64,000 nucleotides of DNA from positions 48,275 to 112,274 of the forward strand of contig CAZYIS010000001.1 of NCBI GenBank assembly GCA_964647695.1, read 5' to 3'. The stretch is from Candidatus Woesearchaeota archaeon (GTDB taxonomy: Archaea > Nanobdellota > Nanobdellia > Pacearchaeales > GW2011-AR1). The notes under the pieces are model-generated. The model ran no database searches. It was given only the letters and a program-made list of their open reading frames with translations, and was not told the DNA's origin. This document shows positions 3,001 through 12,285 of the stretch, piece by piece. How positions within the stretch are numbered: position 1 is the first letter of the stretch; each line of letters opens with the position of its first letter. Both the position numbers and the translations under genes were made by a program.

Positions 3001-3339
3001 ACCTATAGCTACTCTTATTCCTGCCTCCATTGCTTCCAGATGACTAGTAAACTTACAAAACTTTTCCTTTGCAACTTCTTCTGCAATGGTTAAAGCCACG
3101 GCCGGATCCAATGAACCAAATTGCTTTTCCAATTCTAAAATTCTTTCAACAATTTTAGTATTCGAAACCTGAGGATATAACACCGAAATCAGACCCACGA
3201 CTCTTTCAGCCAGGGAGTTTGCCAAAGGAACTTCAACTTCTCTAGCCGGATCTAATCCTTTTTCCCTAGCACCATTTGCAATTAAATAATTTCTTTTAAC
3301 TTCTTTTTCTATTTCCTTAAAATATTCCTTGATGTTCAT
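1..3339 (-). CDS. polD2: DNA polymerase II (PolD) large subunit DP2, C-terminally truncated by window edge
   Basis: By-eye reverse-frame translation from the ATG at 3339-3337 reads through to the window start without a stop (not exhaustively checked). The ORF track lists no complete minus-strand ORF in this interval, consistent with one long ORF lacking an in-window stop. The start overlaps the DP1 stop (ATGA). Translation is DP2-like (GARMGRPEKA, Cys clusters CNNCKEE/CEKCGN, HRGGTQDAPLV, C-terminal CIGCN..CLKCGG zinc finger). It is adjacent to DP1 and cdc6. Confidence 0.75.
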   Translation of the reverse strand, partial: MNIKEYFKEIEKEVKRNYLIANGAREKGLDPAREVEVPLANSLAERVVGLISVLYPQVSNTKIVERILELEKQFGSLDPAVALTIAEEVAKEKFCKFTSHLEAMEAGIRVAIGYMTLGYVSSPLEGFIQLKVKKTKDGKDFLAPYFSGPIRSAGGTEAGFSLVVVDYLREVFGYAKYDPTEDEVKRGIQECYAYHERVTNLQYLPSEQEIEFLMRNIPIQLTGDPSEDKEVYNYKDLPRIETNFIRSGFCLVMGEGIAQKAPKIFGRVTKLKQKGFKLTDWTFLEEFVKLQKKIKEGKAAGGTRGGATYMQDLVAGRPVFAHPSASGAFRLRYGRARTTGYSTLAISPATMGITNDFIAIGTQLKIEKPTKGCTVASCDSLDGPIVKLVDGSVKRIADYDTAIKIYHNVTEILYLGDILVPFGDFANRNHPLEKQGYIEQFWLEELRKEGGDSELMVDFEKAKELSLKYKISLHPNYIYFWTQIKYDSFLALVDWIAHGKLDNSHLLLPYSRIDAERFVKGKRALEIIGCEHLVSTENVILNEKDSFALLFNLGLDITEKRNIILEDEMNILSAKISEKEVLEVINSLSSVRIRDKLGTMIGARMGRPEKAKLRKLTGSPHVLFPVGEEGGRLKSFQSALEAGSVKADFTNFYCNNCKEETVYPKCEKCGNYCVKQFYCRECNDSLNEKCTQHEMGQEYSSKKIDIAKYFEHARKSVGLRNEDIGYVIKGVKGTSNKEHSCELLSKGILRAKHNLNVNKDGTIRYDMTEMPITHFRPREIGISIEKAKKLGYDKDVKGNILENDNQLVELFPHDIILPACPISPDEKADDVFLNVAHFVDEELEKIYKVEKYFNANKKEDLIGAYLACMAPHTSSAVVGRIIGFSKIQALLASPYIHAAMRRDCDGDEAAVMLLMDLLINFSRKFIPSHRGGTQDAPLVLNMHIRANEVDDMIFDVDVSNKMPLELFEAGERHAMPSEIKLEQVRQRLGGEREFIDLGFAYDTSDLNLGPLCSSYKLLPTMQEKVDSMMQLCSKIRAVDVTDVSRLVIERHFIRDTRGNLRKFSQQGFRCIGCNEKYRRPPLVGKCLKCGGRIIFTISHGSILKYMQPALDLA

Positions 3340-4937
3340 TTTATATGTAACTCCCTTAGTTCTTCTTCATTTCCAAAATCAAGAATCTTTAGTTCGCGAG
3401 TTTTTAGATTTAAAACAGGAACTTTGCACGGCTCCGGAACATTTCCTACCTTTTCTTCGAAAGGTGTTTGTCCCTGCCAACAACTTCCAGTCATAATCAA
3501 TACACCATTATAATTTTCCACATCGATTCTGTGAACTTCCCCAGTACAAACCACATCCGGAACTTCACTAATCACAAGATTATCTTTTTCGGCATTTGGA
3601 ATATATATTGCTTCAGAGTGTAATGGAAATAGATGTCTTCTCTTCAGCATGTGCCTTACTGCCTTTGCCGGGCTAAGTTTTTGACTTCTCAATTCAGGAA
3701 TCTCATGAATAAATGTGTGTATGCTGTCTCCATGATACATTAATATTTTGAATTCCTTTTCATTTTCCAACAATTTTATCAAAGAAGGATTACTTACCAG
3801 AATTAAATTTTCTATATCATATAATGGTGCCGCATATCTTCTCCCAATTATGGGTTGAGGTTCGGCCACCCTTACCGCATCGTGCTGACCTGGACACATA
3901 AACATAGTAATATGTTTAGGTATTTGTTTAAGATAGGATGCTAGAAGAGCATACTGTTCCTCCATACTCTTTAATTTTAACAAATTTTCTTGACCTGGGA
4001 AAATACCTACTCCATCCACATTATCCCCTGAAATCATAATATATTTTATTTTCCTAGCAGTTTCATCGTTACTATTTATCCATTCCAAGAAGTTTTCAAA
4101 GCTCTTTTGCAAATGCTTGGCTCCACCAGCGTGAATATCCGAAAGAAAAGCCACATTAACTTCATTCTCAAATCTTACTTTTTCTCCATTGAAAGCATCT
4201 GGAAAAAATATATCATTAACAAATAGCATGTCCCTGCTTCCCGAAGCTCTGACTGCCACAATGTCATCCAATAAGAGCTCTTCCGCCTTTTTAAAAACTT
4301 CAACCTTATCGAATTTAATAAGAGTACTTATCTTTCCAGTTAAATCCTCAAAAGTAATTATTAAATTTTTATTTTTAGTTACTCTCTTTTCGCTAACAAT
4401 CCCTATGATAGTATAATTATTTCTATCGCTCCCTATCTTATTAATAGATACTAGATTCTGTAGGTCCGGTCTATTCATTAAAATCTTTTGTAGCTGATGA
4501 TATCTTGCTCTAAAATTACCTACAAAATCAGCCACCTCTAGTTTTTTATCATTTCTAGTTGTTGAATAAAATATTTTAAAGTCATTTCTAAGATTTTCCA
4601 AATTTTTTCTAGAAATATCCTTCAGCTTATCAAAATTCTCCTTTTTTTCAACTATTGCAGTTTCCTTAGTTATTTCTAAACTTAATCCTAATTTTATTAT
4701 TACATTTTCTACTTCAGTTTTAGATTCTCCATTCAAATTACTCACAAAATTCTTAACAAATCCAAAATTTTTGTTTAACACAGCACGATTTATTATTTTT
4801 TGACCTGAAAATCTTTCCAATCCTTCCAATAATTCTTTTGCATCCCTTGGATGTTGAAAGCTGTTCAATAAATCAAATATTTCTCTCTCTAATAACAATC
4901 CTTTCTCTCTTATTACATTCATTACTTCTTCTTTCAT
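3336..4937 (-). CDS. polD1: DNA polymerase II (PolD) small subunit DP1, calcineurin-like phosphoesterase exonuclease
   Basis: 533 aa. C-terminal phosphoesterase motifs (FLSDIHAGG, ISGDNVDGVG, CPGQHD, MYHGDS). N-terminal OB/linker region. Gene order polD2-polD1-cdc6-oriC. Confidence 0.85.
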   Translation of the reverse strand: MKEEVMNVIREKGLLLEREIFDLLNSFQHPRDAKELLEGLERFSGQKIINRAVLNKNFGFVKNFVSNLNGESKTEVENVIIKLGLSLEITKETAIVEKKENFDKLKDISRKNLENLRNDFKIFYSTTRNDKKLEVADFVGNFRARYHQLQKILMNRPDLQNLVSINKIGSDRNNYTIIGIVSEKRVTKNKNLIITFEDLTGKISTLIKFDKVEVFKKAEELLLDDIVAVRASGSRDMLFVNDIFFPDAFNGEKVRFENEVNVAFLSDIHAGGAKHLQKSFENFLEWINSNDETARKIKYIMISGDNVDGVGIFPGQENLLKLKSMEEQYALLASYLKQIPKHITMFMCPGQHDAVRVAEPQPIIGRRYAAPLYDIENLILVSNPSLIKLLENEKEFKILMYHGDSIHTFIHEIPELRSQKLSPAKAVRHMLKRRHLFPLHSEAIYIPNAEKDNLVISEVPDVVCTGEVHRIDVENYNGVLIMTGSCWQGQTPFEEKVGNVPEPCKVPVLNLKTRELKILDFGNEEELRELHIK

Positions 4938-4948
4938 TTTAGTTCCTA

Positions 4949-6157
4949 TTAAGAGTAAAGGGATTTTTCTAATATTTCTTTTGCTTTTTGTTTTATATTA
5001 GGTGCAAGCATGAGTTTTATTTCTCTCATCCTTCCATGCCTTCCTTTACTAATAACGTGAGTGTTAATCAAACCCAACATGTCAAATTCAGCCAAAATGT
5101 CTGAAACTCTTCTTTGGGTAAGTATTTCATTTTTAGTTTTTTCGCAAACTTCCTGATAATTATTATATACCTCTCCAGTAAATATATCACTATTGTTTTT
5201 TTGATCTGCTAAATTCATAATAGCATACAGAACCAATTGAAATTGTCTGGGTTCGCTTTCGATTATATCTAACATTTTATCTTTCTCTATTTTACTATTA
5301 GCCACGTCTATATGTAATAGAGTTATTTTCTTACTACTTTCTCTTTCAGCCAATTCTCCTGCAACCCTAAGTAAATCCAGCGCCCTTCTAGCATCTCCAT
5401 GCTCCCTAGCGGCATAGGCAGCACATTTAGCAATAACTCCTTCTTCCAGGATTGCATCTTTAAACGCACTATCTGCCCTTGCCTTTAATATATCTTGTAA
5501 TTGTAGGGCATTGTAGGGGGGAAATACTAGTTCTTCTTCTCCCAATGAACTCTTTACCCTAGGATCCAAATCATCCATAAACGTTAAACTATTACTTATA
5601 CCAATAATACTAATTTGAGCATTTTTTAATTCCGTATTTAATCTAGTAAGTGAATAAATGAATGTATCGGATATTTTTTTTACTGCTTGATCTATTTCAT
5701 CCAAAACCAAAATAACCATCTGTTTCTTATTATCAATTAATTCTACAAACCTCTTGTACACCTGATCCGTAGGCAATCCTGTAGAAGGCACATCTCCACC
5801 CAATTCACTTATAATTTCTGCCAACATTCTATATTCCGTATCTGCTACTTTCTTTAATTTACAATTAACATAAACAAACTTTAGACTATCTTCATCCGTT
5901 TTCTTCAAACGAGAAGTCATTTTACTAGCTACATGTTTAATAGATAGAGTTTTACCAGTTCCAGTTTTACCATAAACAAATAAGTTACTTACCTTTTCTC
6001 CTCTAAGAGCTGGAGCAAGTATGGATGCTATTAACTCAATCTGTTCATCTCTATGACCTATACTATCCGGATCATAATTTGATTGAAGCACAGTTTTATT
6101 TTTAAATAAATTATTATTTTCAAAAGAATCAAATATTGCATCTAATTTATCACTCAT
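4949..6157 (-). CDS. cdc6: Orc1/Cdc6 replication initiator (AAA+ with C-terminal winged helix)
   Basis: 402 aa. Walker A VYGKTGTGKT, Walker B VLVLDEID, sensor motifs. Lies directly beside an AT-rich intergenic region with ORB elements. Confidence 0.9.
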   Translation of the reverse strand: MSDKLDAIFDSFENNNLFKNKTVLQSNYDPDSIGHRDEQIELIASILAPALRGEKVSNLFVYGKTGTGKTLSIKHVASKMTSRLKKTDEDSLKFVYVNCKLKKVADTEYRMLAEIISELGGDVPSTGLPTDQVYKRFVELIDNKKQMVILVLDEIDQAVKKISDTFIYSLTRLNTELKNAQISIIGISNSLTFMDDLDPRVKSSLGEEELVFPPYNALQLQDILKARADSAFKDAILEEGVIAKCAAYAAREHGDARRALDLLRVAGELAERESSKKITLLHIDVANSKIEKDKMLDIIESEPRQFQLVLYAIMNLADQKNNSDIFTGEVYNNYQEVCEKTKNEILTQRRVSDILAEFDMLGLINTHVISKGRHGRMREIKLMLAPNIKQKAKEILEKSLYS

Positions 6158-6350
6158 TTTTACCTCTTTAATAAAAATTAGAACACTATCCTTATTATAA
6201 ACTTATCTATCCTCTAAGCATTGTTTCCTATGGAATAAAAAATAAGATTTTTGTATAATTTTTAAAAAAATCGAAAATACGACGATAATATGTTATTTTA
6301 CTAAAAATTATAGCTTTAATTTAAAAAAATAAATTCAAAAAATAGATTGA

Positions 6351-6380
6351 AACACCCACACCCTCACTTCCGTTGGAAAA
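6351..6380 (-). promoter_or_regulatory. ORB-like origin recognition box (reverse orientation)
   Basis: acacccacaccctcacTTCCGTTGGAAAaa. Dyad TTCCgtTGGAAA matches the ORB core tTCCAgTGGAAAc. The ACCC-rich tract is the complement of the ORB G-string. Confidence 0.6.
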
Positions 6381-6440
6381 ATAATTTAAAAAATATTTTA
6401 CGTGTAAACTGTTAATTAATAAGAACTTTAATATCTATTC

Positions 6441-6500
6441 TGTAATATATATAATATAATATATAATATATAATATATATATTTATAAATAAAAAATAGA
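6441..6500. repeat. (AT)n-rich duplex unwinding element-like tract
   Basis: tgtaatatatataatataatatataatatataatatatatattta lies between the two ORBs. Confidence 0.5.
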
Positions 6501-6543
6501 AAAAGAAAAAGTTAAAAAAATCATTTATAAATTTATTCATATA

Positions 6544-6576
6544 TTTCCAATAGAAATCATAGGGTGGGAGGGTAGG
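6544..6576 (+). promoter_or_regulatory. ORB-like origin recognition box (forward orientation)
   Basis: tTTCCAATAGAAAtcatagGGTGGGAGGGTAGG: ORB-like dyad followed by a G-string, inverted relative to the ORB at 6351-6380. Confidence 0.6.
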
Positions 6577-6752
6577 TCATTTTTTACTTTTTTCTATTAA
6601 TTTCATTCCTATTTCAATCTTTAATAATTCATTTTTAATTTTAAAAAAGTGCATTTCTAACTTTTTATCGTCTTTTTCTCTTGTTTCAGATACTAAAATA
6701 TATCTTAATGGATTATGGAAAAGTTTAAATATCATATCTTATACAATCAATT

Positions 6753-7013
6753 ATGACTTTAGACAAAAAACCACTAAAAGAGATCGTTGGAAAATTAGTT
6801 GTTACAAAAGAGGGTAAAAGATTAGGTATAGTTAAAGATATTACTTTTGAAACCAGAACTGGAGAATTAATTCAACTGGTAATAAAAGATCCTACACCTT
6901 ACACTAGAAATTTAAATTTAGAAGTTTCTTCTTCCAAGGACATATTAGTTCCTTATAATACAATAATTGCCATTGGTGATTTTGTAGTTATTTCAGAAGA
7001 AGACTTAGCTTAA
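6753..7013 (+). CDS. PRC-barrel domain protein
   Basis: 86 aa. Pattern VVTKEGKRLGIVKDITFETRTGELIQLVI is typical of small archaeal PRC-barrel proteins. Confidence 0.55.
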   Translation: MTLDKKPLKEIVGKLVVTKEGKRLGIVKDITFETRTGELIQLVIKDPTPYTRNLNLEVSSSKDILVPYNTIIAIGDFVVISEEDLA

Positions 7014-7026
7014 TCCTTCTTTCAAC

Positions 7027-7455
7027 ATGAATATTCTTGGTTTTAATTTTACTAAAATTTCAGCAGAAAAATCTGTCAAATTAGAAAACGTTCAAATCAA
7101 AACCAACATTAGTTTTGAAGATCCTAAAAAAGAAGATACTAAATTACTAAAAGATCAAGAGATAGTTAAATTTCCTTTTTCCTATGAAATAAAATATGAT
7201 TCTGAAGATCCTAAAACCAAGAAAGTTGAAACCAAAGCAGTTATTTCATTCAAAGGTTTAATTCTTCTATCCGGAACTAAAGAAGAAACCAAAGATCTAA
7301 TCAAAAATTGGAACTCAAAAGAATCCAATTCAGATCAAAAAGTAGGAATCATAAATACCATAATTCATAAATCTACTATTAAAGCATTAGCATTAGAAGA
7401 AGAACTTGATCTTCCATCCCACGTCAACCTACCAACCATTAAATTATCCAAATAA
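7027..7455 (+). CDS. hypothetical protein, Lys/Glu-rich
   Basis: 142-aa ORF. No recognisable motifs. Confidence 0.4.
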   Translation: MNILGFNFTKISAEKSVKLENVQIKTNISFEDPKKEDTKLLKDQEIVKFPFSYEIKYDSEDPKTKKVETKAVISFKGLILLSGTKEETKDLIKNWNSKESNSDQKVGIINTIIHKSTIKALALEEELDLPSHVNLPTIKLSK

Positions 7456-8163
7456 TTAGTTTAATTTTTTTAATTTACCAAATTCCAGCACTTTTAGGTT
7501 CTCACCAATAATTTTAACTTCAAATTCGTTTAATTTAAAATTCCAAGGCATTTCATTTTTCATATTTCTCACATCAATTCCTTCCTTTAGACCTGAAAAA
7601 CTAGGTAAAATTATAATTTTCTTGTCTTTCCATCGTCCTTCTAAAAAACATTTATATTTCTCGCTCTTGACTCCTTCCGTCAGAACTATTGCTGGATGCA
7701 GATGACCCATTATCCAATATTTAATCTTTTTATCATTTATTTCAGAAAAATCCCTATCTCCATGTAAAAAAGCATACTTTTCATTAATATAATAATCTAA
7801 AAGTTCAATTTTTCTTTTGGAAGTAAAATTAATTAAAAAATTATCATGGTTTCCCTTAGTAATTATTATTCTATCACATTTTTTCTCCAAATAATCAAAG
7901 AAATTAATAAAATCATTCCTTTCTTCTTGATTCAACTCTGAAAACTTGTTCTTTAAATCACCCAAAAGCACAATTTTATCTACTTTTCCAGTTTTATCAA
8001 ATATTTCATTCAAATCATCTAATATTTGACCATAAACTTCTCCAGACAAGATACTTCCCAATGATTCTTCTCCCACTCCAAAGTGCAAATCCCCTACTAC
8101 TAATATTTTTTCTTTATTTTCTTCAATCAGCAAACATTTTCCCATATATTTTATATTATTCAT
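7456..8163 (-). CDS. Metallophosphoesterase (calcineurin-like; MPE-type nuclease candidate) downstream of Lhr helicase
   Basis: 235 aa. Motifs LVVGDLHFG, LLGDL, GNHD, HGDRD, GHLHP. Co-oriented with and downstream of the lhr-like gene. Confidence 0.8.
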   Translation of the reverse strand: MNNIKYMGKCLLIEENKEKILVVGDLHFGVGEESLGSILSGEVYGQILDDLNEIFDKTGKVDKIVLLGDLKNKFSELNQEERNDFINFFDYLEKKCDRIIITKGNHDNFLINFTSKRKIELLDYYINEKYAFLHGDRDFSEINDKKIKYWIMGHLHPAIVLTEGVKSEKYKCFLEGRWKDKKIIILPSFSGLKEGIDVRNMKNEMPWNFKLNEFEVKIIGENLKVLEFGKLKKLN

Positions 8164-8206
8164 TATTTTAATTCATAAAAAGGCTAATTAATACTTTCGT
8201 TGATAC

Positions 8207-8512
8207 TCAAGCAATAGCTTTAAATTCAACATCTCTTATTTCAGAAGTAGGAATAACTAACATTATCTCCAAGTTAGATACTGCGTGACCCTTAACTCCT
8301 TCTCCAGATCTTAAATTAACTCTATTTCCAAACATCAATGCTTCTCCTTCTTTTATTTTCTTTGCAATTTTAGTTGCAACATATGCTGGATGATGTTCCA
8401 AGGTATATTCATCTTTTCCACATTCATCTAACAAAGGGGTTGCAGTCAAGGTTATTTTTCTACTTTCAACAGATTTGTCTTTATAATTTATTATTAAATA
8501 GTTATTTACCAT
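8207..8512 (-). CDS. hypothetical small protein between helicase and MPE
   Basis: 101-aa ORF. Co-oriented within the helicase-MPE gene string. Confidence 0.45.
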   Translation of the reverse strand: MVNNYLIINYKDKSVESRKITLTATPLLDECGKDEYTLEHHPAYVATKIAKKIKEGEALMFGNRVNLRSGEGVKGHAVSNLEIMLVIPTSEIRDVEFKAIA

Positions 8513-8579
8513 AAAATTATACTTTTTATCTAATTTTTAAACCTAATTACTCCTTTTTACCACCTATTCATAACTAATT

Positions 8580-11183
8580 TTATTTATTTCCTATGGCTTT
8601 CATATGTAATTCATGCATTCTCTTTAAAAAATTAGCCCTATCTTCCATCTTAATAAGATCCGATCTTCCTTCCAATGAAAGATTAACCCCAAAAGGACTT
8701 ACAAAAGGTGTTCTTATCTTCTTCAGCTTAACCGTTCCATTTTCAATCCACTTTAACACCTGCTCAGCACTTTTTATGTCCATTAAATCCTCAAAAACCT
8801 CTCTCCTTGCTTCTCTAAGTATGGGGAACTCATTACTTATCTTCTTTACTGCCACCAATAGAAATCCTGAATGCATCTGCTGTTTACCTACGCTCTTTTC
8901 TCTTCCCTTATAGTTTCTAAGAATCATCAAAGATCTAGCAGCACACTGTCTAAACCTTCGGTTAAGTATTTCGGTTCTTTCCACTGCCTCTTTCAATATC
9001 TCCCTCAAATTTTTACTTTTTACAAAATCAATTATCTTATTTTCATCCAATTCTGTTCCCGATATAAAGAAGCCATTATCATTTACTCCTATTTCTATAT
9101 CTCTATACTTTAGTCTAGCGGCAGCAAAAGCATAGGCCCTAGCCAAAGAATCATTTACTCTTCTACCATAGAGCGAATGAAACATTAATACTTCCTTATC
9201 TGATTTGAACTTCTCAACCACCAAAGTATTAACATCCGGAACTGCAGCAAACTTACTTTGTTCAAGAAAATAGTTATAAATCGTTTCAGCCACATGTTTT
9301 TTACAATAAACATTTTCCATAATAAATTCTATTGCTTCTTTCTTATTGTTCAATCTCTCTTTCAACAGCTTTCTAAACCGTCCAATGCTCAAAGCCACAT
9401 CAAAACTCAAGGGCAACTGTTCAGAAAACCAACTAGGGATTGTAGGATTTTTAGTAACCCCTGCCGAAACATAGGCCTTCATACCTCTGGAATAAAGATA
9501 TTGATATTTTGCTCCCCCTAGTACAAAAATATCTCCTCTTTTCATTCTCTCCAGAAAGGATTCATCAATCTTACCTATTATCTGCCCTCTCTGCTCAACC
9601 GGATTCTGAATTGTAACGCTTATGAATCCTTCTTCAGGAATAGTTCCTATATTAGTCATATACATAACTCTTGCCATCTTTCCTCTCTTTCCAATCTGAT
9701 TCTTTTCTTTATCATACCATATTTTAGCATAAACATTTCTATGTTCTAGAGCATACTCTCCTGCTAGATAACTAACCACATCAAAAAAATCTTCTTTGCT
9801 CAAATTTTCATAGCAATAACTCCTTCTAATGGTTGCAAGTAGTTCATCCACAGCCCATATTCTAGATATGGCCATTCCAAATATCTGCTGAGCCAGCACA
9901 TCTAAACAATTTTTTGGTATATCTGCTCTATCAATTTTACCCTCCACCATCTCTTTCATCAATATACTACATTCCACCAAGTCATCCCTATCCAAAACTA
10001 TGAATTCGCCCCTAGGATTCTCATGGAGTTTATGGCCTGCTCTTCCAATTCTTTGCAACGCTCTAGAAACCGACTTAGGACTTCTAATCATCACAACCAG
10101 ATCTATGCTTCCTATATCTATTCCCAGTTCCAAAGACGTACTGGAAACAACAACTTTCAATTGTCCTGCTCTCAATTTATCTTCAATCTCCAATCTTTTC
10201 TCCTTAGACATGGAACCATGATGGGCCCCTATCAAACCTTCATATTTTCCTGGAAAATGCATATCTAAAAAATGAATTATTCTTTCTGTAGCTGCCCTAG
10301 TATTAGTAAATATCAATGTGGTTCTATTTTTTTCAATCAATTCATCCAATAATTTGTAAAACTTTTTTTGATTTACTTGATTTTCCGCTTCCAGAATATT
10401 ATCTCCTGGATAATCCAGCCCAATTTCAATCTTCTTATTCAATTTAACTGCTGCAATTAAACAATCTCTCTGAGTTCCCACTAAAAACTTAGCTATTTCC
10501 TCCAGAGGAGATATGGTGGCACTAAGTCCAATACGCACCGGTTCAATTTTACTATAATTACACAGTCTTTCAAGAGTAAGTGAAAGGTAAACTCCTCGCT
10601 TATTAGTCAATGCGTGTATTTCATCCACTATAACAAATTCCAAATTCTTAACATTTTCCACAAACTTCTCAGTTGTCAATACTATGGCCAAACTTTCCGG
10701 AGTTGTAACATATATGTGTGGGCTCTTTCTAGCATGTTTAGCTCTTTCAGCCGCCGTTGTATCTCCTGTTCTTAATCCTACTCTTATCTTTTGCATCTTT
10801 ATTCCTTTTTTCAAGGCTAAAGCCTCAATTTCTTCGAGTGGATTAATTAAATTAACAAAAATATCATTGCTCAATGCCTTTAATGGAGAAGTATAGATTG
10901 CATATATCTTATCTTCCAGTTCATTTTTCAGTGCAAGAGAGACAATATAATTAATTATTCCCAGAAAAGCTGTAAGTGTTTTAGTTCCGCCAGTAGGTGC
11001 ACTAACCAGAATGTTTTTTCTATCATAAATATTTTTTACACCATATAACTGAGTCAATGAATAATCCTTAAACCTAGTAAAAAACCATTCTTTCACGATA
11101 GGATCTAGTATTGCACTAACTTCAGCACTCTTGAAAGGTTCAATATATTTTATTTCCGACATATAATTCTGCCTTGAGTTCAT
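8580..11183 (-). CDS. lhr: Lhr-like superfamily 2 DEAH/DEIH-box helicase (Lhr-core architecture)
   Basis: 867 aa. Motif I VSAPTGGTKTL (non-canonical: Thr replaces the Gly before the Lys), motif II VDEIH, motif III LSAT, motif VI QRIGRAGH. About 400-aa C-terminal WH/domain-4 region typical of Lhr-core. Confidence 0.85.
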   Translation of the reverse strand: MNSRQNYMSEIKYIEPFKSAEVSAILDPIVKEWFFTRFKDYSLTQLYGVKNIYDRKNILVSAPTGGTKTLTAFLGIINYIVSLALKNELEDKIYAIYTSPLKALSNDIFVNLINPLEEIEALALKKGIKMQKIRVGLRTGDTTAAERAKHARKSPHIYVTTPESLAIVLTTEKFVENVKNLEFVIVDEIHALTNKRGVYLSLTLERLCNYSKIEPVRIGLSATISPLEEIAKFLVGTQRDCLIAAVKLNKKIEIGLDYPGDNILEAENQVNQKKFYKLLDELIEKNRTTLIFTNTRAATERIIHFLDMHFPGKYEGLIGAHHGSMSKEKRLEIEDKLRAGQLKVVVSSTSLELGIDIGSIDLVVMIRSPKSVSRALQRIGRAGHKLHENPRGEFIVLDRDDLVECSILMKEMVEGKIDRADIPKNCLDVLAQQIFGMAISRIWAVDELLATIRRSYCYENLSKEDFFDVVSYLAGEYALEHRNVYAKIWYDKEKNQIGKRGKMARVMYMTNIGTIPEEGFISVTIQNPVEQRGQIIGKIDESFLERMKRGDIFVLGGAKYQYLYSRGMKAYVSAGVTKNPTIPSWFSEQLPLSFDVALSIGRFRKLLKERLNNKKEAIEFIMENVYCKKHVAETIYNYFLEQSKFAAVPDVNTLVVEKFKSDKEVLMFHSLYGRRVNDSLARAYAFAAARLKYRDIEIGVNDNGFFISGTELDENKIIDFVKSKNLREILKEAVERTEILNRRFRQCAARSLMILRNYKGREKSVGKQQMHSGFLLVAVKKISNEFPILREARREVFEDLMDIKSAEQVLKWIENGTVKLKKIRTPFVSPFGVNLSLEGRSDLIKMEDRANFLKRMHELHMKAIGNK

Positions 11184-11254
11184 TATTTAAGTCTTATGAA
11201 ATATAAAATTTTTCAAATCAGTAGCTTTAAATAAGTTATTCGGTTTTATCTTCC

Positions 11255-11587
11255 ATGCCCATCATATCCCAACAAAAAAAAGACAAAATATCTGAACAAA
11301 TACTACATTATCTTTTTGAAAACTCTCCCGAAAGCAAATTCACTTCCGACATAGCCAAAGAAATCGCTCGAGATGAAGAATTTATTAAAATAATTCTTGC
11401 TGATTTGTCAAAAAAAGGCTTAATCAATCTAATAACTAAAAATTCTTCCGGCGTTTCCTACCTAAAAAGACAAAGATGGCGTCTAAGCAATCAAGCATTC
11501 CAAATTTATTCCAATGCTCAGTCCCATAAAAACCAGAATGCTGTATTTCAGAATAACAATATTTATAATAACTCTGATGACTCTTGA
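11255..11587 (+). CDS. hypothetical small protein (possible winged-helix)
   Basis: 110 aa. Stop overlaps the start of the next ORF (ATGA-type overlap). Confidence 0.4.
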   Translation: MPIISQQKKDKISEQILHYLFENSPESKFTSDIAKEIARDEEFIKIILADLSKKGLINLITKNSSGVSYLKRQRWRLSNQAFQIYSNAQSHKNQNAVFQNNNIYNNSDDS

Positions 11588-12285
11588 ATTCTATGGACAA
11601 GGATCCAATTAAAGAAGCATTTACCCGCGCAAAAATTGATATTCAATCACTTAAAGACCAATTCTCTTCACTATTAAATGAAATTCAAGATATTAAACGA
11701 ACTCTCAATACTATATCTAATAAACCCTCAGACAGACAGATAGACCAACAGACAAACCAACAGATAAATAAGGCAGATATCCAACAAGAAGATGAATTAT
11801 ACGAACCTCCAACATCTGATTGGCCCTATAAACGTCTAAAACCCCATGTTTACAGACTTTCCACAAGAAATAGGGGGGTTCCAACAGACAGACAGACAAA
11901 CCAACAGACAGACAGACAAACACATAATAAAGGGAAAATCGACAAAATAGCAGCCATTGACCAGGTTTCCCAGATACTAGAATCCCTAGATTCCATGAAA
12001 AAAGAGCTCAGATCGAAGTTTAAACATTTAACCAATCAAGAAATGCTAGTTTTTTCAACCATCTATCAACTTGAAGAAGAAGGTTTTTCCGTCGATTATC
12101 CTCTAGTTTCTCAGAAATTAAGTCTTACCGAGTCATCCATACGAGATTATGTTCTTAAGCTAACAAAAAAAGGTATTCCCATCGGTAAAATCAAAGAAAA
12201 CAATAAGAAAATCTTCCTTAAAATCTCTTCAGAGTTCAAGAAATTGGCTTCTCTGGATACGATTTTAGCTTTGAGAGAATTATAA
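11584..12285 (+). CDS. coiled-coil protein with C-terminal MarR-like winged HTH and internal DRQTNQQT peptide repeats
   Basis: 233 aa. Repeats PSDRQIDQQTNQQ and DRQTNQQTDRQTH are encoded by CAGA-type tandem DNA repeats. C-terminal region reads as wHTH (LTNQEMLVFSTIYQLEEEGF...IRDYVLKLTKKG). Confidence 0.5.
   Translation: MNSMDKDPIKEAFTRAKIDIQSLKDQFSSLLNEIQDIKRTLNTISNKPSDRQIDQQTNQQINKADIQQEDELYEPPTSDWPYKRLKPHVYRLSTRNRGVPTDRQTNQQTDRQTHNKGKIDKIAAIDQVSQILESLDSMKKELRSKFKHLTNQEMLVFSTIYQLEEEGFSVDYPLVSQKLSLTESSIRDYVLKLTKKGIPIGKIKENNKKIFLKISSEFKKLASLDTILALREL

What the first reader, a model, noticed from the sequence alone, without database searches (positions are those of the whole stretch)
7456..11183. 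Archaeal Lhr-helicase / small ORF / metallophosphoesterase operon with a non-canonical Walker A
An 867-aa Lhr-core-type DEIH helicase is followed, co-oriented, by a 101-aa ORF and a 235-aa calcineurin-like metallophosphoesterase. An Lhr-MPE pairing is known from bacteria as a helicase-nuclease repair module. Finding the same linkage here suggests the module functions in this archaeon, possibly with the small ORF as a third component. Separately, the helicase P-loop reads APTGGTKT rather than the canonical APTGSGKT, with Thr replacing the Gly before the Lys. That is unusual and could affect ATPase activity, or it could be a sequence error.
Basis: partly seen in the sequence, partly recalled or inferred. 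Interest (0 to 1): 0.55.

Follow-up and report, generated by a model that had tools for sequence, protein, structure and literature searches.

The report
DPANN Lhr–MPE repair pair, orphan insert
This is the already-described Lhr helicase / MPE nuclease DNA-repair gene pair of a tiny DPANN archaeon; the small gene between them is a strain-specific orphan insertion rather than a third partner, and the odd ATP-binding loop is real and conserved across the whole Pacearchaeota/Woesearchaeota lineage, not a sequencing error.

Summary
All three ORFs are real and lie on the minus strand: an aLhr2/Lhr-core helicase (8580-11183), a 101-aa ORF (8207-8512) and an MPE-type metallophosphoesterase (7456-8163).

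The Lhr-MPE linkage holds across relatives. MPE lay downstream on the same strand in 64 of 68 informative loci. This pairing was already published for DPANN archaea (Hajj 2021).

The 101-aa ORF is not a conserved third component:
- It sits in a ~410-bp insertion that is absent from a sister strain (98% aa, 88% nt identical), where the lhr stop and the MPE ATG are 1 nt apart.
- Its only database matches are identical copies from the same strain.
- Its codon usage is host-like, so it is probably a real orphan gene.
- The lhr|MPE junction is variable: 39 of 64 loci carry 0.2-9 kb of unrelated cargo there. Four loci carry repeated copies of the lhr 3' end.

The Walker A APTGGTKT is not an error:
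- It occurs in 119 of 120 close homologs.
- Thr67 is encoded by all four Thr codons across relatives.
- T or S at this position marks one Woese/Pacearchaeota clade; 117 other Lhr representatives all have Gly.
- Lhr dN/dS is 0.015.

The result is an ordinary module with a previously unreported clade-wide P-loop variant.

The parts
8580..11183 (-). aLhr2 / Lhr-core SF2 helicase gene (867-aa ORF; the likely start is Met8, giving 860 aa)
   Evidence: One search lists the ORF. Pfam matches are DEAD, Helicase_C, WH_Lhr and DEAD_assoc. NCBIfam PRK13767 scores 1085 bits against a cutoff of 849. The best PDB relative is M. smegmatis Lhr 5V9X at E=6e-107. dN/dS against the sister strain is 0.015.
10977..11000 (-). 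Motif I / Walker A, APTGGTKT. Thr67 (codon 10983-10985) replaces the Gly that precedes the catalytic Lys
   Evidence: Translation gives APTGGTKT. It aligns to GSGK54T55 of M. smegmatis Lhr. TGGTKT is present in 119 of 120 close homologues. All four Thr codons are used across relatives. T or S at this position is confined to one clade, while all 117 other representatives have Gly.
10614..10625 (-). Motif II, DEIH (Walker B)
   Evidence: Translation gives DEIH. The motif is invariant in alignment A1.
8164..8579 (-). Strain-specific inserted segment (~410 bp) lying exactly between the lhr stop codon and the MPE start codon
   Evidence: Sister-strain contigs L012, L013 and L014 join window 8577 directly to window 8167. 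In L012 the lhr TAA and the MPE ATG are 1 nt apart. The segment is 100% identical only in L015-L017, which come from the same strain.
8207..8512 (-). 101-aa orphan gene carried by the insertion
   Evidence: One search lists the ORF. Its only hits among 5.8 billion proteins are identical copies. It has no Pfam, NCBIfam, PHROG, PADLOC or PDB hit, even at E=10. Its codon-usage score of 0.368 per codon exceeds 98% of real-gene windows and all 25 spurious ORFs. Only 9 of 5000 shuffles give an ORF this long.
7456..8163 (-). MPE-type binuclear metallophosphoesterase (COG1407 / TIGR00024 group)
   Evidence: It matches Pfam Metallophos. TIGR00024 scores 113.9 bits against a cutoff of 115.2, and PdeM TIGR04123 scores 70 bits. 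A profile of 51 syntenic orthologues best matches P. putida nuclease MPE 6NVO at E=1.2e-11. The metal ligands and H106 are invariant. dN/dS is 0.06.
7948..7950 (-). Asn72 codon of MPE, at the position aligned to P. putida MPE His81
   Evidence: Translation gives GDLKNKF. This column is His in 47 of 51 syntenic orthologues and in 102 of 117 close homologues. It is N, D or Q in the window's nearest relatives. H81A abolishes ssDNA cleavage in P. putida MPE (PMC7826289).

Best explanation
The locus is the two-gene Lhr-MPE nucleic-acid repair module of a DPANN archaeon of the Pacearchaeota/Nanoarchaeota lineage.

By inference from characterised bacterial and Thermococcus homologues, Lhr is an ATP-driven 3'-to-5' single-strand translocase and DNA/RNA helicase. 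MPE is a Mn-dependent single-strand DNA endonuclease. The two are co-transcribed so that strands exposed by Lhr can be cut by MPE during repair of damaged DNA.

In this strain a ~410-bp segment carrying a host-adapted orphan gene of 101 codons has been inserted precisely between the lhr stop and the MPE start. That junction is a recurrent landing place for unrelated accessory genes in this lineage. The small gene is therefore cargo, not a conserved subunit.

The P-loop with Thr in place of the Gly before the catalytic Lys is an ancient, selected feature of the Woesearchaeota/Pacearchaeota Lhr clade. It is most likely compatible with ATPase activity.

What is shown: the gene identities, the conservation of the linkage, the insertion, the orphan status, and the clade-wide selected variant. 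What is inferred: the enzymatic activities, the cooperation between the two proteins, the co-transcription, and that Thr67 Lhr still hydrolyses ATP.
For: Synteny: MPE was found downstream on the same strand in 64 loci. It was absent in only 4 loci that had at least 3 kb of downstream sequence. The linkage is published for DPANN.

Insertion: the sister strain lacks window 8168-8576. In the closer relatives L001 and L018 MPE also follows lhr directly.

Variable junction: 25 loci have a gap of 130 nt or less and 39 have gaps of 204-8973 nt. The gaps hold 134 ORFs, of which 110 are singletons. Their Pfam content is mixed: toxin-antitoxin, restriction-modification methylases, PRPP synthetase and regulators.

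The small ORF is coding-like but orphan.

Walker A. All other helicase motifs are invariant in A1. dN/dS is 0.015 for Lhr and 0.06 for MPE.
Against: No transcript or biochemical data exist for any DPANN Lhr or MPE.

The window MPE has Asn where P. putida MPE has His81, which is essential for nuclease activity. Its nuclease activity may therefore be altered.

TIGR00024 is missed by 1.3 bits.

The invariant P-loop Gly is usually needed for tight nucleotide binding, so normal ATPase activity is assumed rather than shown.

The insertion mechanism is unknown. I found no target-site duplication and no second copy of the lhr 3' end in the window.
Confidence: 0.85

Rival explanations
1. The 101-aa protein is a genuine third subunit, adaptor or regulator of the Lhr-MPE machine.
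For: It is co-oriented and tightly spaced, 67 nt after lhr and 43 nt before MPE. It looks like a real, host-adapted gene. A single small co-oriented ORF at this position recurs in other genomes: L022, L032, L042, L045 and L048.
Against: It is absent from the sister strain whose Lhr is 98% identical. It has no homologue anywhere except identical copies. The small ORFs at the same place in other genomes are unrelated to it and to each other, and include membrane, Cys-rich and RHH-like proteins. The single-sequence AF2 model is unusable, with pLDDT 38.
Confidence: 0.06
2. The small ORF is a selfish or defence-type cassette, delivered by a site-specific mechanism that uses the 3' end of lhr as its attachment site. 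This would be the same process that built the lhr-3'-repeat arrays in other DPANN genomes.
For: L002, L006, L037 and L077 carry one to three extra copies of the last ~16 lhr codons. All copies start at the same boundary (FLKRMHELH...), and each copy delimits a cassette. The cassettes encode PIN_2, AbiEii, MNT/AbrB-like and AAA_14+DUF4143 proteins. In L006 the repeats are 91-95% identical although the cargo differs. The window insert sits at the same junction.
Against: There is no second copy of the lhr 3' end in the window and no clear target-site duplication. No integrase was seen in any array. Only 4 of ~70 loci show the repeats. Many gaps hold ordinary housekeeping genes such as HSP70, GrpE and PRPP synthetase. 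The small ORF has no toxin, antitoxin or defence signature.
Confidence: 0.2
3. The Thr-for-Gly P-loop change cripples ATP hydrolysis. On this reading, Lhr in this lineage is an ATP-independent or merely ATP-binding scaffold rather than a motor.
For: The Gly before the Lys is invariant in 117 of 117 other Lhr representatives. From general knowledge of P-loop NTPases, which I did not test here, this Gly is usually important for phosphate binding.
Against: Every other catalytic motif is invariant across the clade: Q45, K68, T69, DEIH, SAT and QRxGRxGH. dN/dS is 0.015. Thr67 itself is conserved through all four synonymous codons. This pattern is expected for an active site, not a decaying one. From my own knowledge and untested here, MCM proteins work with Ala or Ser at this position.
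Confidence: 0.1
4. APTGGTKT is a sequencing or assembly error.
For: None found.
Against: The motif is identical in 119 of 120 close homologues from many independent samples and assemblers. It is also present in L001-L006 and in 71 metagenome loci.
Confidence: 0.01

Closest known systems
Archaeal aLhr2 helicases (NCBIfam PRK13767; Thermococcus barophilus aLhr2, Hajj et al. 2021, PMC8301817)
   Same: They share the four-domain architecture: RecA1, RecA2, the Lhr winged helix and domain 4 (DEAD_assoc). The window protein scores above the PRK13767 cutoff. The paper already reports a neighbouring TIGR00024 phosphoesterase in DPANN genomes.
   Different: Motif I has Thr67 instead of the invariant Gly. 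Two further clade-specific residues are L46, next to the Q-motif Gln, and R338. No member of this DPANN clade has been studied biochemically.
Mycobacterium smegmatis Lhr-core (PDB 5V9X) and the bacterial Lhr-core / MPE operon
   Same: It is the best solved relative, at E=6e-107 over residues 27-835. The Q motif, DExH, SAT and QRxGRAGH motifs are the same. The helicase gene is followed by an MPE gene.
   Different: Identity is only about 35-40%. M. smegmatis has GSGK54T55 where the window has GGTK68T69. There is no C-terminal extension of about 650 aa. The window protein is not a member of the ligase-associated subfamily: TIGR04121 scores 537 bits against a cutoff of 850. No DNA ligase or exonuclease gene is among the neighbours I checked.
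Pseudomonas putida nuclease MPE (PDB 6NVO/6NVP; PMC7826289) / PdeM
   Same: It is the best PDB hit for the profile of the syntenic DPANN MPEs, at E=1.2e-11 and nearly full length. All seven metal-ligand positions and the general-acid His (H106 here) are conserved.
   Different: The His81 equivalent is Asn72 in the window and its nearest relatives. PdeM TIGR04123 scores only 70 bits against a cutoff of 150. Sequence identity is too low for a direct phmmer hit.
Integron cassette arrays, including archaeal integrons (Ghaly et al. 2022, PMC9668308). The comparison is with the lhr-3'-repeat arrays seen in L002 and L006
   Same: Both are serial arrays of one- or two-gene cassettes, each bounded by a repeat, carrying toxin-antitoxin-type cargo in DPANN genomes.
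   Different: The repeat here is a conserved coding sequence, the 3' end of lhr. It is not a structured attC, and its DNA folds are not better than shuffles (z from 0 to -2.1). No integron integrase was seen, and cargo lies in both orientations.

Membership tests
Lhr-core / aLhr2 helicase (PRK13767) | Whole-protein score above the curated cutoff of the family model | tested here: met
   NF010338 PRK13767 scores 1085.4 bits against a cutoff of 849, covering residues 17-866.
Lhr-core / aLhr2 helicase (PRK13767) | Domain set: two RecA-like domains, the Lhr winged helix and domain 4 (DEAD_assoc) | tested here: met
   Pfam DEAD 45-228, Helicase_C 277-383, WH_Lhr 411-579 and DEAD_assoc 648-832 all score above their gathering thresholds.
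Lhr-core / aLhr2 helicase (PRK13767) | Canonical SF2 motif I, GxGK[ST] (Walker A) | tested here: not met
   The window has APTGGTKT, with Thr in place of the Gly before the Lys. All 117 representatives outside the clade have Gly. Lys68 and Thr69 are retained.
Lhr-core / aLhr2 helicase (PRK13767) | Motifs II (DExH), III (SAT) and VI (QRxGRxGH) are intact | tested here: met
   DEIH was confirmed by translation. D187-H190, S221-T223, and Q377, R378, G380, R381, G383 and H384 are invariant in A1.
Lhr-core / aLhr2 helicase (PRK13767) | Nucleic-acid-dependent ATPase with 3'-to-5' translocation and unwinding | not testable with these tools
   This requires biochemistry. Strong purifying selection (dN/dS 0.015) is only indirect support.
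MPE / TIGR00024 SbcD_rel_arch / COG1407 phosphoesterase | Score above the curated family cutoff | tested here: inconclusive
   TIGR00024 scores 113.9 bits against a cutoff of 115.2, with full-length coverage of 9-234 on 10-221 of 224. Pfam Metallophos scores 47.7 against 21.5, which is met.
MPE / TIGR00024 SbcD_rel_arch / COG1407 phosphoesterase | Binuclear metal-ligand set: DxH, GD, GNH, H and GHxH | tested here: met
   D25, H27, D69, H106, H134 and H156 are invariant in 51 syntenic orthologues. N105 and H154 are conserved in 50 of 51. All are present in the window protein.
MPE / TIGR00024 SbcD_rel_arch / COG1407 phosphoesterase | The two non-ligand His residues essential for ssDNA cleavage in P. 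putida MPE (His113 and His81) | tested here: inconclusive
   The His113 equivalent, H106, is present. The His81 equivalent is Asn72 in the window, whereas it is His in 47 of 51 orthologues.
MPE / TIGR00024 SbcD_rel_arch / COG1407 phosphoesterase | Conserved genomic linkage to an lhr gene | tested here: met
   MPE lies downstream on the same strand in 64 loci and is absent in 4 loci with at least 3 kb of downstream sequence. The linkage is also in the literature.
Bacterial ligase-associated DNA damage response cluster (TIGR04121 helicase + TIGR04123 PdeM + ligase + exonuclease) | Helicase and phosphoesterase scoring above the cutoffs of the ligase-associated models | tested here: not met
   TIGR04121 scores 537 bits against a cutoff of 850. 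TIGR04123 scores 70 bits against a cutoff of 150.
Bacterial ligase-associated DNA damage response cluster (TIGR04121 helicase + TIGR04123 PdeM + ligase + exonuclease) | An adjacent ATP-dependent DNA ligase gene | tested here: not met
   The neighbours from 4949 to 12285 are Orc1/Cdc6, a PRC-barrel protein, a 142-aa ORF, a wHTH-like 110-aa ORF and a 233-aa ORF. None is a ligase.
Integron-type cassette (considered for the 101-aa ORF insert) | A cassette bounded by an attC-like structured repeat, or by a repeat of the attachment site | tested here: not met
   The window holds no second copy of the lhr 3' end. The repeats in L002 and L006 do not fold better than shuffles.

The most novel reading that the evidence does not exclude
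The 3' end of lhr, and the lhr|MPE junction behind it, could be a dedicated attachment site of an undescribed, integrase-poor gene-cassette system in Pacearchaeota and Woesearchaeota. On this reading, accessory modules (toxin-antitoxin, defence and orphan genes) are inserted one after another. Each insertion regenerates the last ~50 nt of lhr, from the FLKRMHELH-coding boundary onward. The window's 101-aa orphan gene would be a single such cassette whose repeat has decayed.
Probability: 0.2. Interest if true: 0.6.

Novelty: new variant of a known kind. Interest (0 to 1): 0.38.

Why it matters
The Lhr-MPE pairing itself adds nothing new, because it is already published for DPANN archaea. Two things are worth keeping.

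1. A whole archaeal lineage runs a strongly conserved SF2 helicase whose Walker A lacks the 'invariant' Gly before the Lys, having Thr or Ser instead.
   - This is a natural experiment on P-loop tolerance.
   - It is a cheap biochemical target: compare T67G with wild type.
   - P0036 may be a natural swap, with a canonical N-terminal segment on an otherwise Pacearchaeota-type protein.

2. The gap between two conserved repair genes is a hot spot for accessory and orphan genes in genome-reduced DPANN archaea, sometimes with att-like repeats of the lhr 3' end.
   - This may reveal how these organisms acquire genes.

The result is also a caution. A small ORF wedged inside a conserved gene pair is not automatically a subunit.

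Tried and rejected
1. Intein-scar idea. I considered that Thr67 might be the +1 nucleophile left by a P-loop intein. This is rejected. The P-loop inteins in this family sit between Lys68 and Thr69 (APTGSGK|C... and APTGGTK|C...), and they occur in canonical and variant proteins alike.

2. Homologues of the 101-aa ORF. I found none in any search:
   - the word-indexed search of 5.8 billion proteins;
   - Pfam at E=10;
   - NCBIfam, PHROGs and PADLOC;
   - PDB at E=10;
   - IMG/VR viral contigs and GenBank phages by tblastn;
   - the rest of the window and all 97 fetched loci;
   - the 134 junction ORFs of other genomes, by phmmer at E<10.

3. Structure of the 101-aa ORF. Single-sequence AF2 gave pLDDT 38, which is too poor for a fold search, so I ran none.

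4. A relic of the lhr 3' end, or a target-site duplication, at the edges of the window insert. I found only AT-rich similarity of about 12 nt.

5. An attC-like hairpin in the lhr-3' repeats. The folds are not significant.

6. A direct phmmer search of the window MPE against PDB found nothing. The profile search was needed.

7. The small ORF therefore did not get an exhaustive search.


Full report
**Observation**

The window carries three co-oriented minus-strand ORFs exactly as described:
- 8580..11183, 867 aa
- 8207..8512, 101 aa
- 7456..8163, 235 aa

Translating 10977-11000 gives APTGGTKT, and translating 10614-10625 gives DEIH.

Homologues and gene callers start the helicase at Met8 (860 aa) and the phosphoesterase at Met7 (229 aa). 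This does not change anything below.

**What the genes are**

The 867-aa protein has the full Lhr-core architecture: DEAD, Helicase_C, WH_Lhr and DEAD_assoc.
- It scores 1085 bits on NCBIfam PRK13767 against a cutoff of 849.
- It falls well below the cutoff of the bacterial ligase-associated model TIGR04121, at 537 bits against 850.
- Its best solved relative is M. smegmatis Lhr 5V9X, at E=6e-107.

The 235-aa protein matches Metallophos.
- It matches TIGR00024 SbcD_rel_arch over its full length at 113.9 bits, just under the cutoff of 115.2.
- A profile of 51 syntenic orthologues (A3) finds P. putida nuclease MPE 6NVO as its best PDB match, at E=1.2e-11 and nearly full length.
- The metal ligands D25, H27, D69, N105, H134, H154 and H156, and the general-acid His H106, are conserved.

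Named homologues are all Pacearchaeota, Nanoarchaeota or Woesearchaeota MAGs. The window is therefore from a DPANN archaeon, with about 32% GC.

**Linkage**

I examined 87 related loci from GTDB genomes and JGI metagenomes, with Lhr 58-83% identical to the window's.
- An MPE gene lay downstream of lhr on the same strand in 64 loci.
- Only four loci with at least 3 kb of downstream sequence lacked it.
- The other loci without an MPE end too soon after lhr, and three further contigs break inside lhr.

The linkage is real and conserved. It is also already published. Hajj et al. 2021 report the TIGR00024/COG1407 phosphoesterase next to alhr2 in DPANN genomes and relate it to bacterial MPE (PMC8301817).

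**The small ORF**

The sister-strain contigs L012, L013 and L014 have an Lhr 98% identical in protein and about 88% identical in DNA. They align to the window up to 8577 and resume at 8167. In them the lhr TAA and the MPE ATG are 1 nt apart. The ~410 bp between is therefore a strain-specific insertion.

The ORF's only matches among 5.8 billion clustered proteins are identical copies on three contigs of the same strain. Every profile library, PDB, phage and viral collection, the rest of the window and all fetched loci gave nothing.

It is nevertheless probably a real gene:
- Its codon-usage log-odds is 0.368 per codon.
- Real-gene windows average 0.242 ± 0.062, and the best of 25 spurious ORFs scores 0.317.
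- Only 9 of 5000 shuffles of the insert give an ORF this long.

The single-sequence AF2 model is unusable, with pLDDT 38.

**The junction is a variable spot**

Of the 64 loci with both genes, 25 have a gap of 130 nt or less and 39 have gaps of 204-8973 nt.

The gaps hold 134 ORFs, of which 110 are singletons by all-against-all BLASTP. Their Pfam content is mixed:
- PRPP synthetase, in 7 ORFs
- MNT/HepT/HEPN and MazE toxin-antitoxin parts
- restriction-modification methylases
- HTH regulators and GNATs
- occasionally housekeeping genes such as HSP70 and GrpE

Several genomes have a single small co-oriented ORF there, as the window does. These ORFs are unrelated to one another and to the window ORF. 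The 'third component' idea is therefore not supported.

**Walker A**

TGGTKT is present in 119 of 120 close homologues at 73-98% identity and in L001-L006 at 59-83% identity.

Across the fetched loci, the Thr before the Lys is encoded by ACT (33), ACA (33), ACC (4) and ACG (4).

I ran an exhaustive HMMER search of 1.84 billion representatives and took the best 150, at 34-62% identity.
- A non-Gly residue before the Lys occurs only as GGTKT, GATKT, GSTKT or GSSKT.
- All other representatives with a recognisable motif are canonical.

In a neighbour-joining tree of the helicase core, all non-Gly variants fall in one clade with the window protein. There are two canonical exceptions inside that clade, P0219 and P0036. 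Named members of the clade are Woesearchaeota and Pacearchaeota.

P0036 looks chimeric. Residues 1-185 are about 50% identical and carry SPTGSGKT, while the rest is about 88% identical.

The column is 100% Gly in the 117 representatives outside the clade. Other clade-specific columns include L46, next to the Q-motif Gln, and R338, where 92% of the others have Lys.

The variant aligns to GSGK54T55 of M. smegmatis Lhr, where Lys54 binds the β and γ phosphates.

All other catalytic motifs are invariant. dN/dS against the sister strain is 0.015 for Lhr and 0.06 for MPE.

The variant is therefore real, old and selected, and a sequencing error is excluded. I found no paper mentioning it, within the limits of the library. 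Whether it changes ATPase kinetics or nucleotide or metal preference cannot be decided here.

**A second deviation**

The window MPE has Asn72 (GDLKNKF) at the position aligned to P. putida His81.
- H81A abolishes ssDNA cleavage in P. putida MPE but not bis-pNPP hydrolysis (PMC7826289).
- His occupies this column in 47 of 51 syntenic orthologues and in 102 of 117 close homologues.
- N, D or Q occur mainly in the window's nearest relatives.

**Side lead**

In L002, L006, L037 and L077 the last ~16 codons of lhr are repeated one to three times downstream.
- All copies start at the same boundary, FLKRMHELH....
- Each copy closes a cassette encoding PIN_2, AbiEii, MNT/AbrB-like or AAA_14+DUF4143 proteins.
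- In L006 the first three repeat copies are 91-95% identical to the reference copy although the cargo differs.

This looks like serial site-specific integration at an att site that overlaps the lhr 3' end. No integrase was seen, and the repeats are not attC-like hairpins. The window has no such repeat, so tying its insert to this mechanism is only a hypothesis.

**Verdict**

This is a known repair gene pair in a DPANN archaeon. The small ORF is an orphan insertion at a variable junction. The Walker A oddity is a genuine clade-wide variant that appears to be undescribed. Interest is moderate.

Noticed in passing
L006 8423-13012; L002 8555-12023; L037 12551 and 13210; L077 12548 and 13644: Arrays of one- or two-gene cassettes lie downstream of lhr. 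Each is bounded by a repeat of the last ~50 nt of lhr, and every repeat starts at the FLKRMHELH-coding boundary. The cargo encodes PIN_2, AbiEii, MNT/AbrB-like, AAA_14+DUF4143 and DUF2130/Mrr proteins. In L006 the first three repeat copies are 91-95% identical to the reference copy although the cargo differs. No integrase was seen and the repeats have no attC-like fold.
   Followed up: partly
window 7948-7950 (MPE Asn72): The residue aligned to P. putida MPE His81, which is essential for ssDNA cleavage, is Asn in the window and its nearest relatives. It is His in about 90% of orthologues.
   Followed up: partly
P0036 (861 aa, Logan contig of 5.6 kb): This Lhr appears to be a chimera. Its first ~185 residues are about 50% identical to the window protein and carry the canonical SPTGSGKT. 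The remaining ~680 residues are about 88% identical. It is either a natural recombinant or an assembly chimera.
   Followed up: partly
P0031, P0050, P0090, P0122-P0124, P0126, P0128, P0131, P0140, P0142, P0187, P0231, P0242: Many Lhr homologues carry inteins. One insertion site is inside the P-loop between Lys68 and Thr69 (APTGSGK|C...). Others lie near residue 347 (motif V region) and residue 376 (motif VI). Some proteins carry two or three inteins.
   Followed up: partly
P0129, P0133, P0137-P0138, P0141-P0156 and others: A large group of Lhr-core homologues at 43-48% identity are 1700-1950 aa long. They carry a ~900-aa C-terminal extension of unknown nature and have a canonical SPTGSGKT. I examined neither their taxonomy nor the extension.
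   Followed up: no
window 6158-6752: This 595-bp, very AT-rich intergenic region contains (TA)n-like tracts and lies between orc1/cdc6 (4949-6157, minus strand) and a PRC-barrel gene. The PolD small-subunit gene lies just beyond orc1, at window 3336-4937 (Metallophos + DNA_pol_E_B in the identical contig L015), followed by a 1057-aa gene that I did not check. It is probably the replication origin, which would place the Lhr-MPE pair about 1-2 kb from oriC.
   Followed up: partly
L016 and L017 ends (window 8183); L012 and L014 ends (window-equivalent 7636): Independent metagenome contigs break at identical positions. One break is just after the small ORF and the other is inside MPE. This suggests strain-level heterogeneity at this junction in the sampled populations.
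   Followed up: no
window 7027-7455 (+), 6753-7013 (+), 11255-11587 (+), 11584-12285 (+): Four neighbours flank the pair. A 142-aa ORF and a PRC-barrel gene are convergent with MPE. A divergent pair (a 110-aa wHTH-like ORF and a 233-aa ORF) lies upstream of lhr. These neighbours are conserved around lhr-MPE in relatives L001, L002, L003 and L012. Their functions are unknown.
   Followed up: no
L038, L039, L041, L050, L058, L071, L089 (gap between lhr and MPE): A PRPP-synthetase-like gene of about 325 aa recurs, co-oriented, between lhr and MPE in seven loci. It is the only frequently repeated cargo family at the junction.
   Followed up: no
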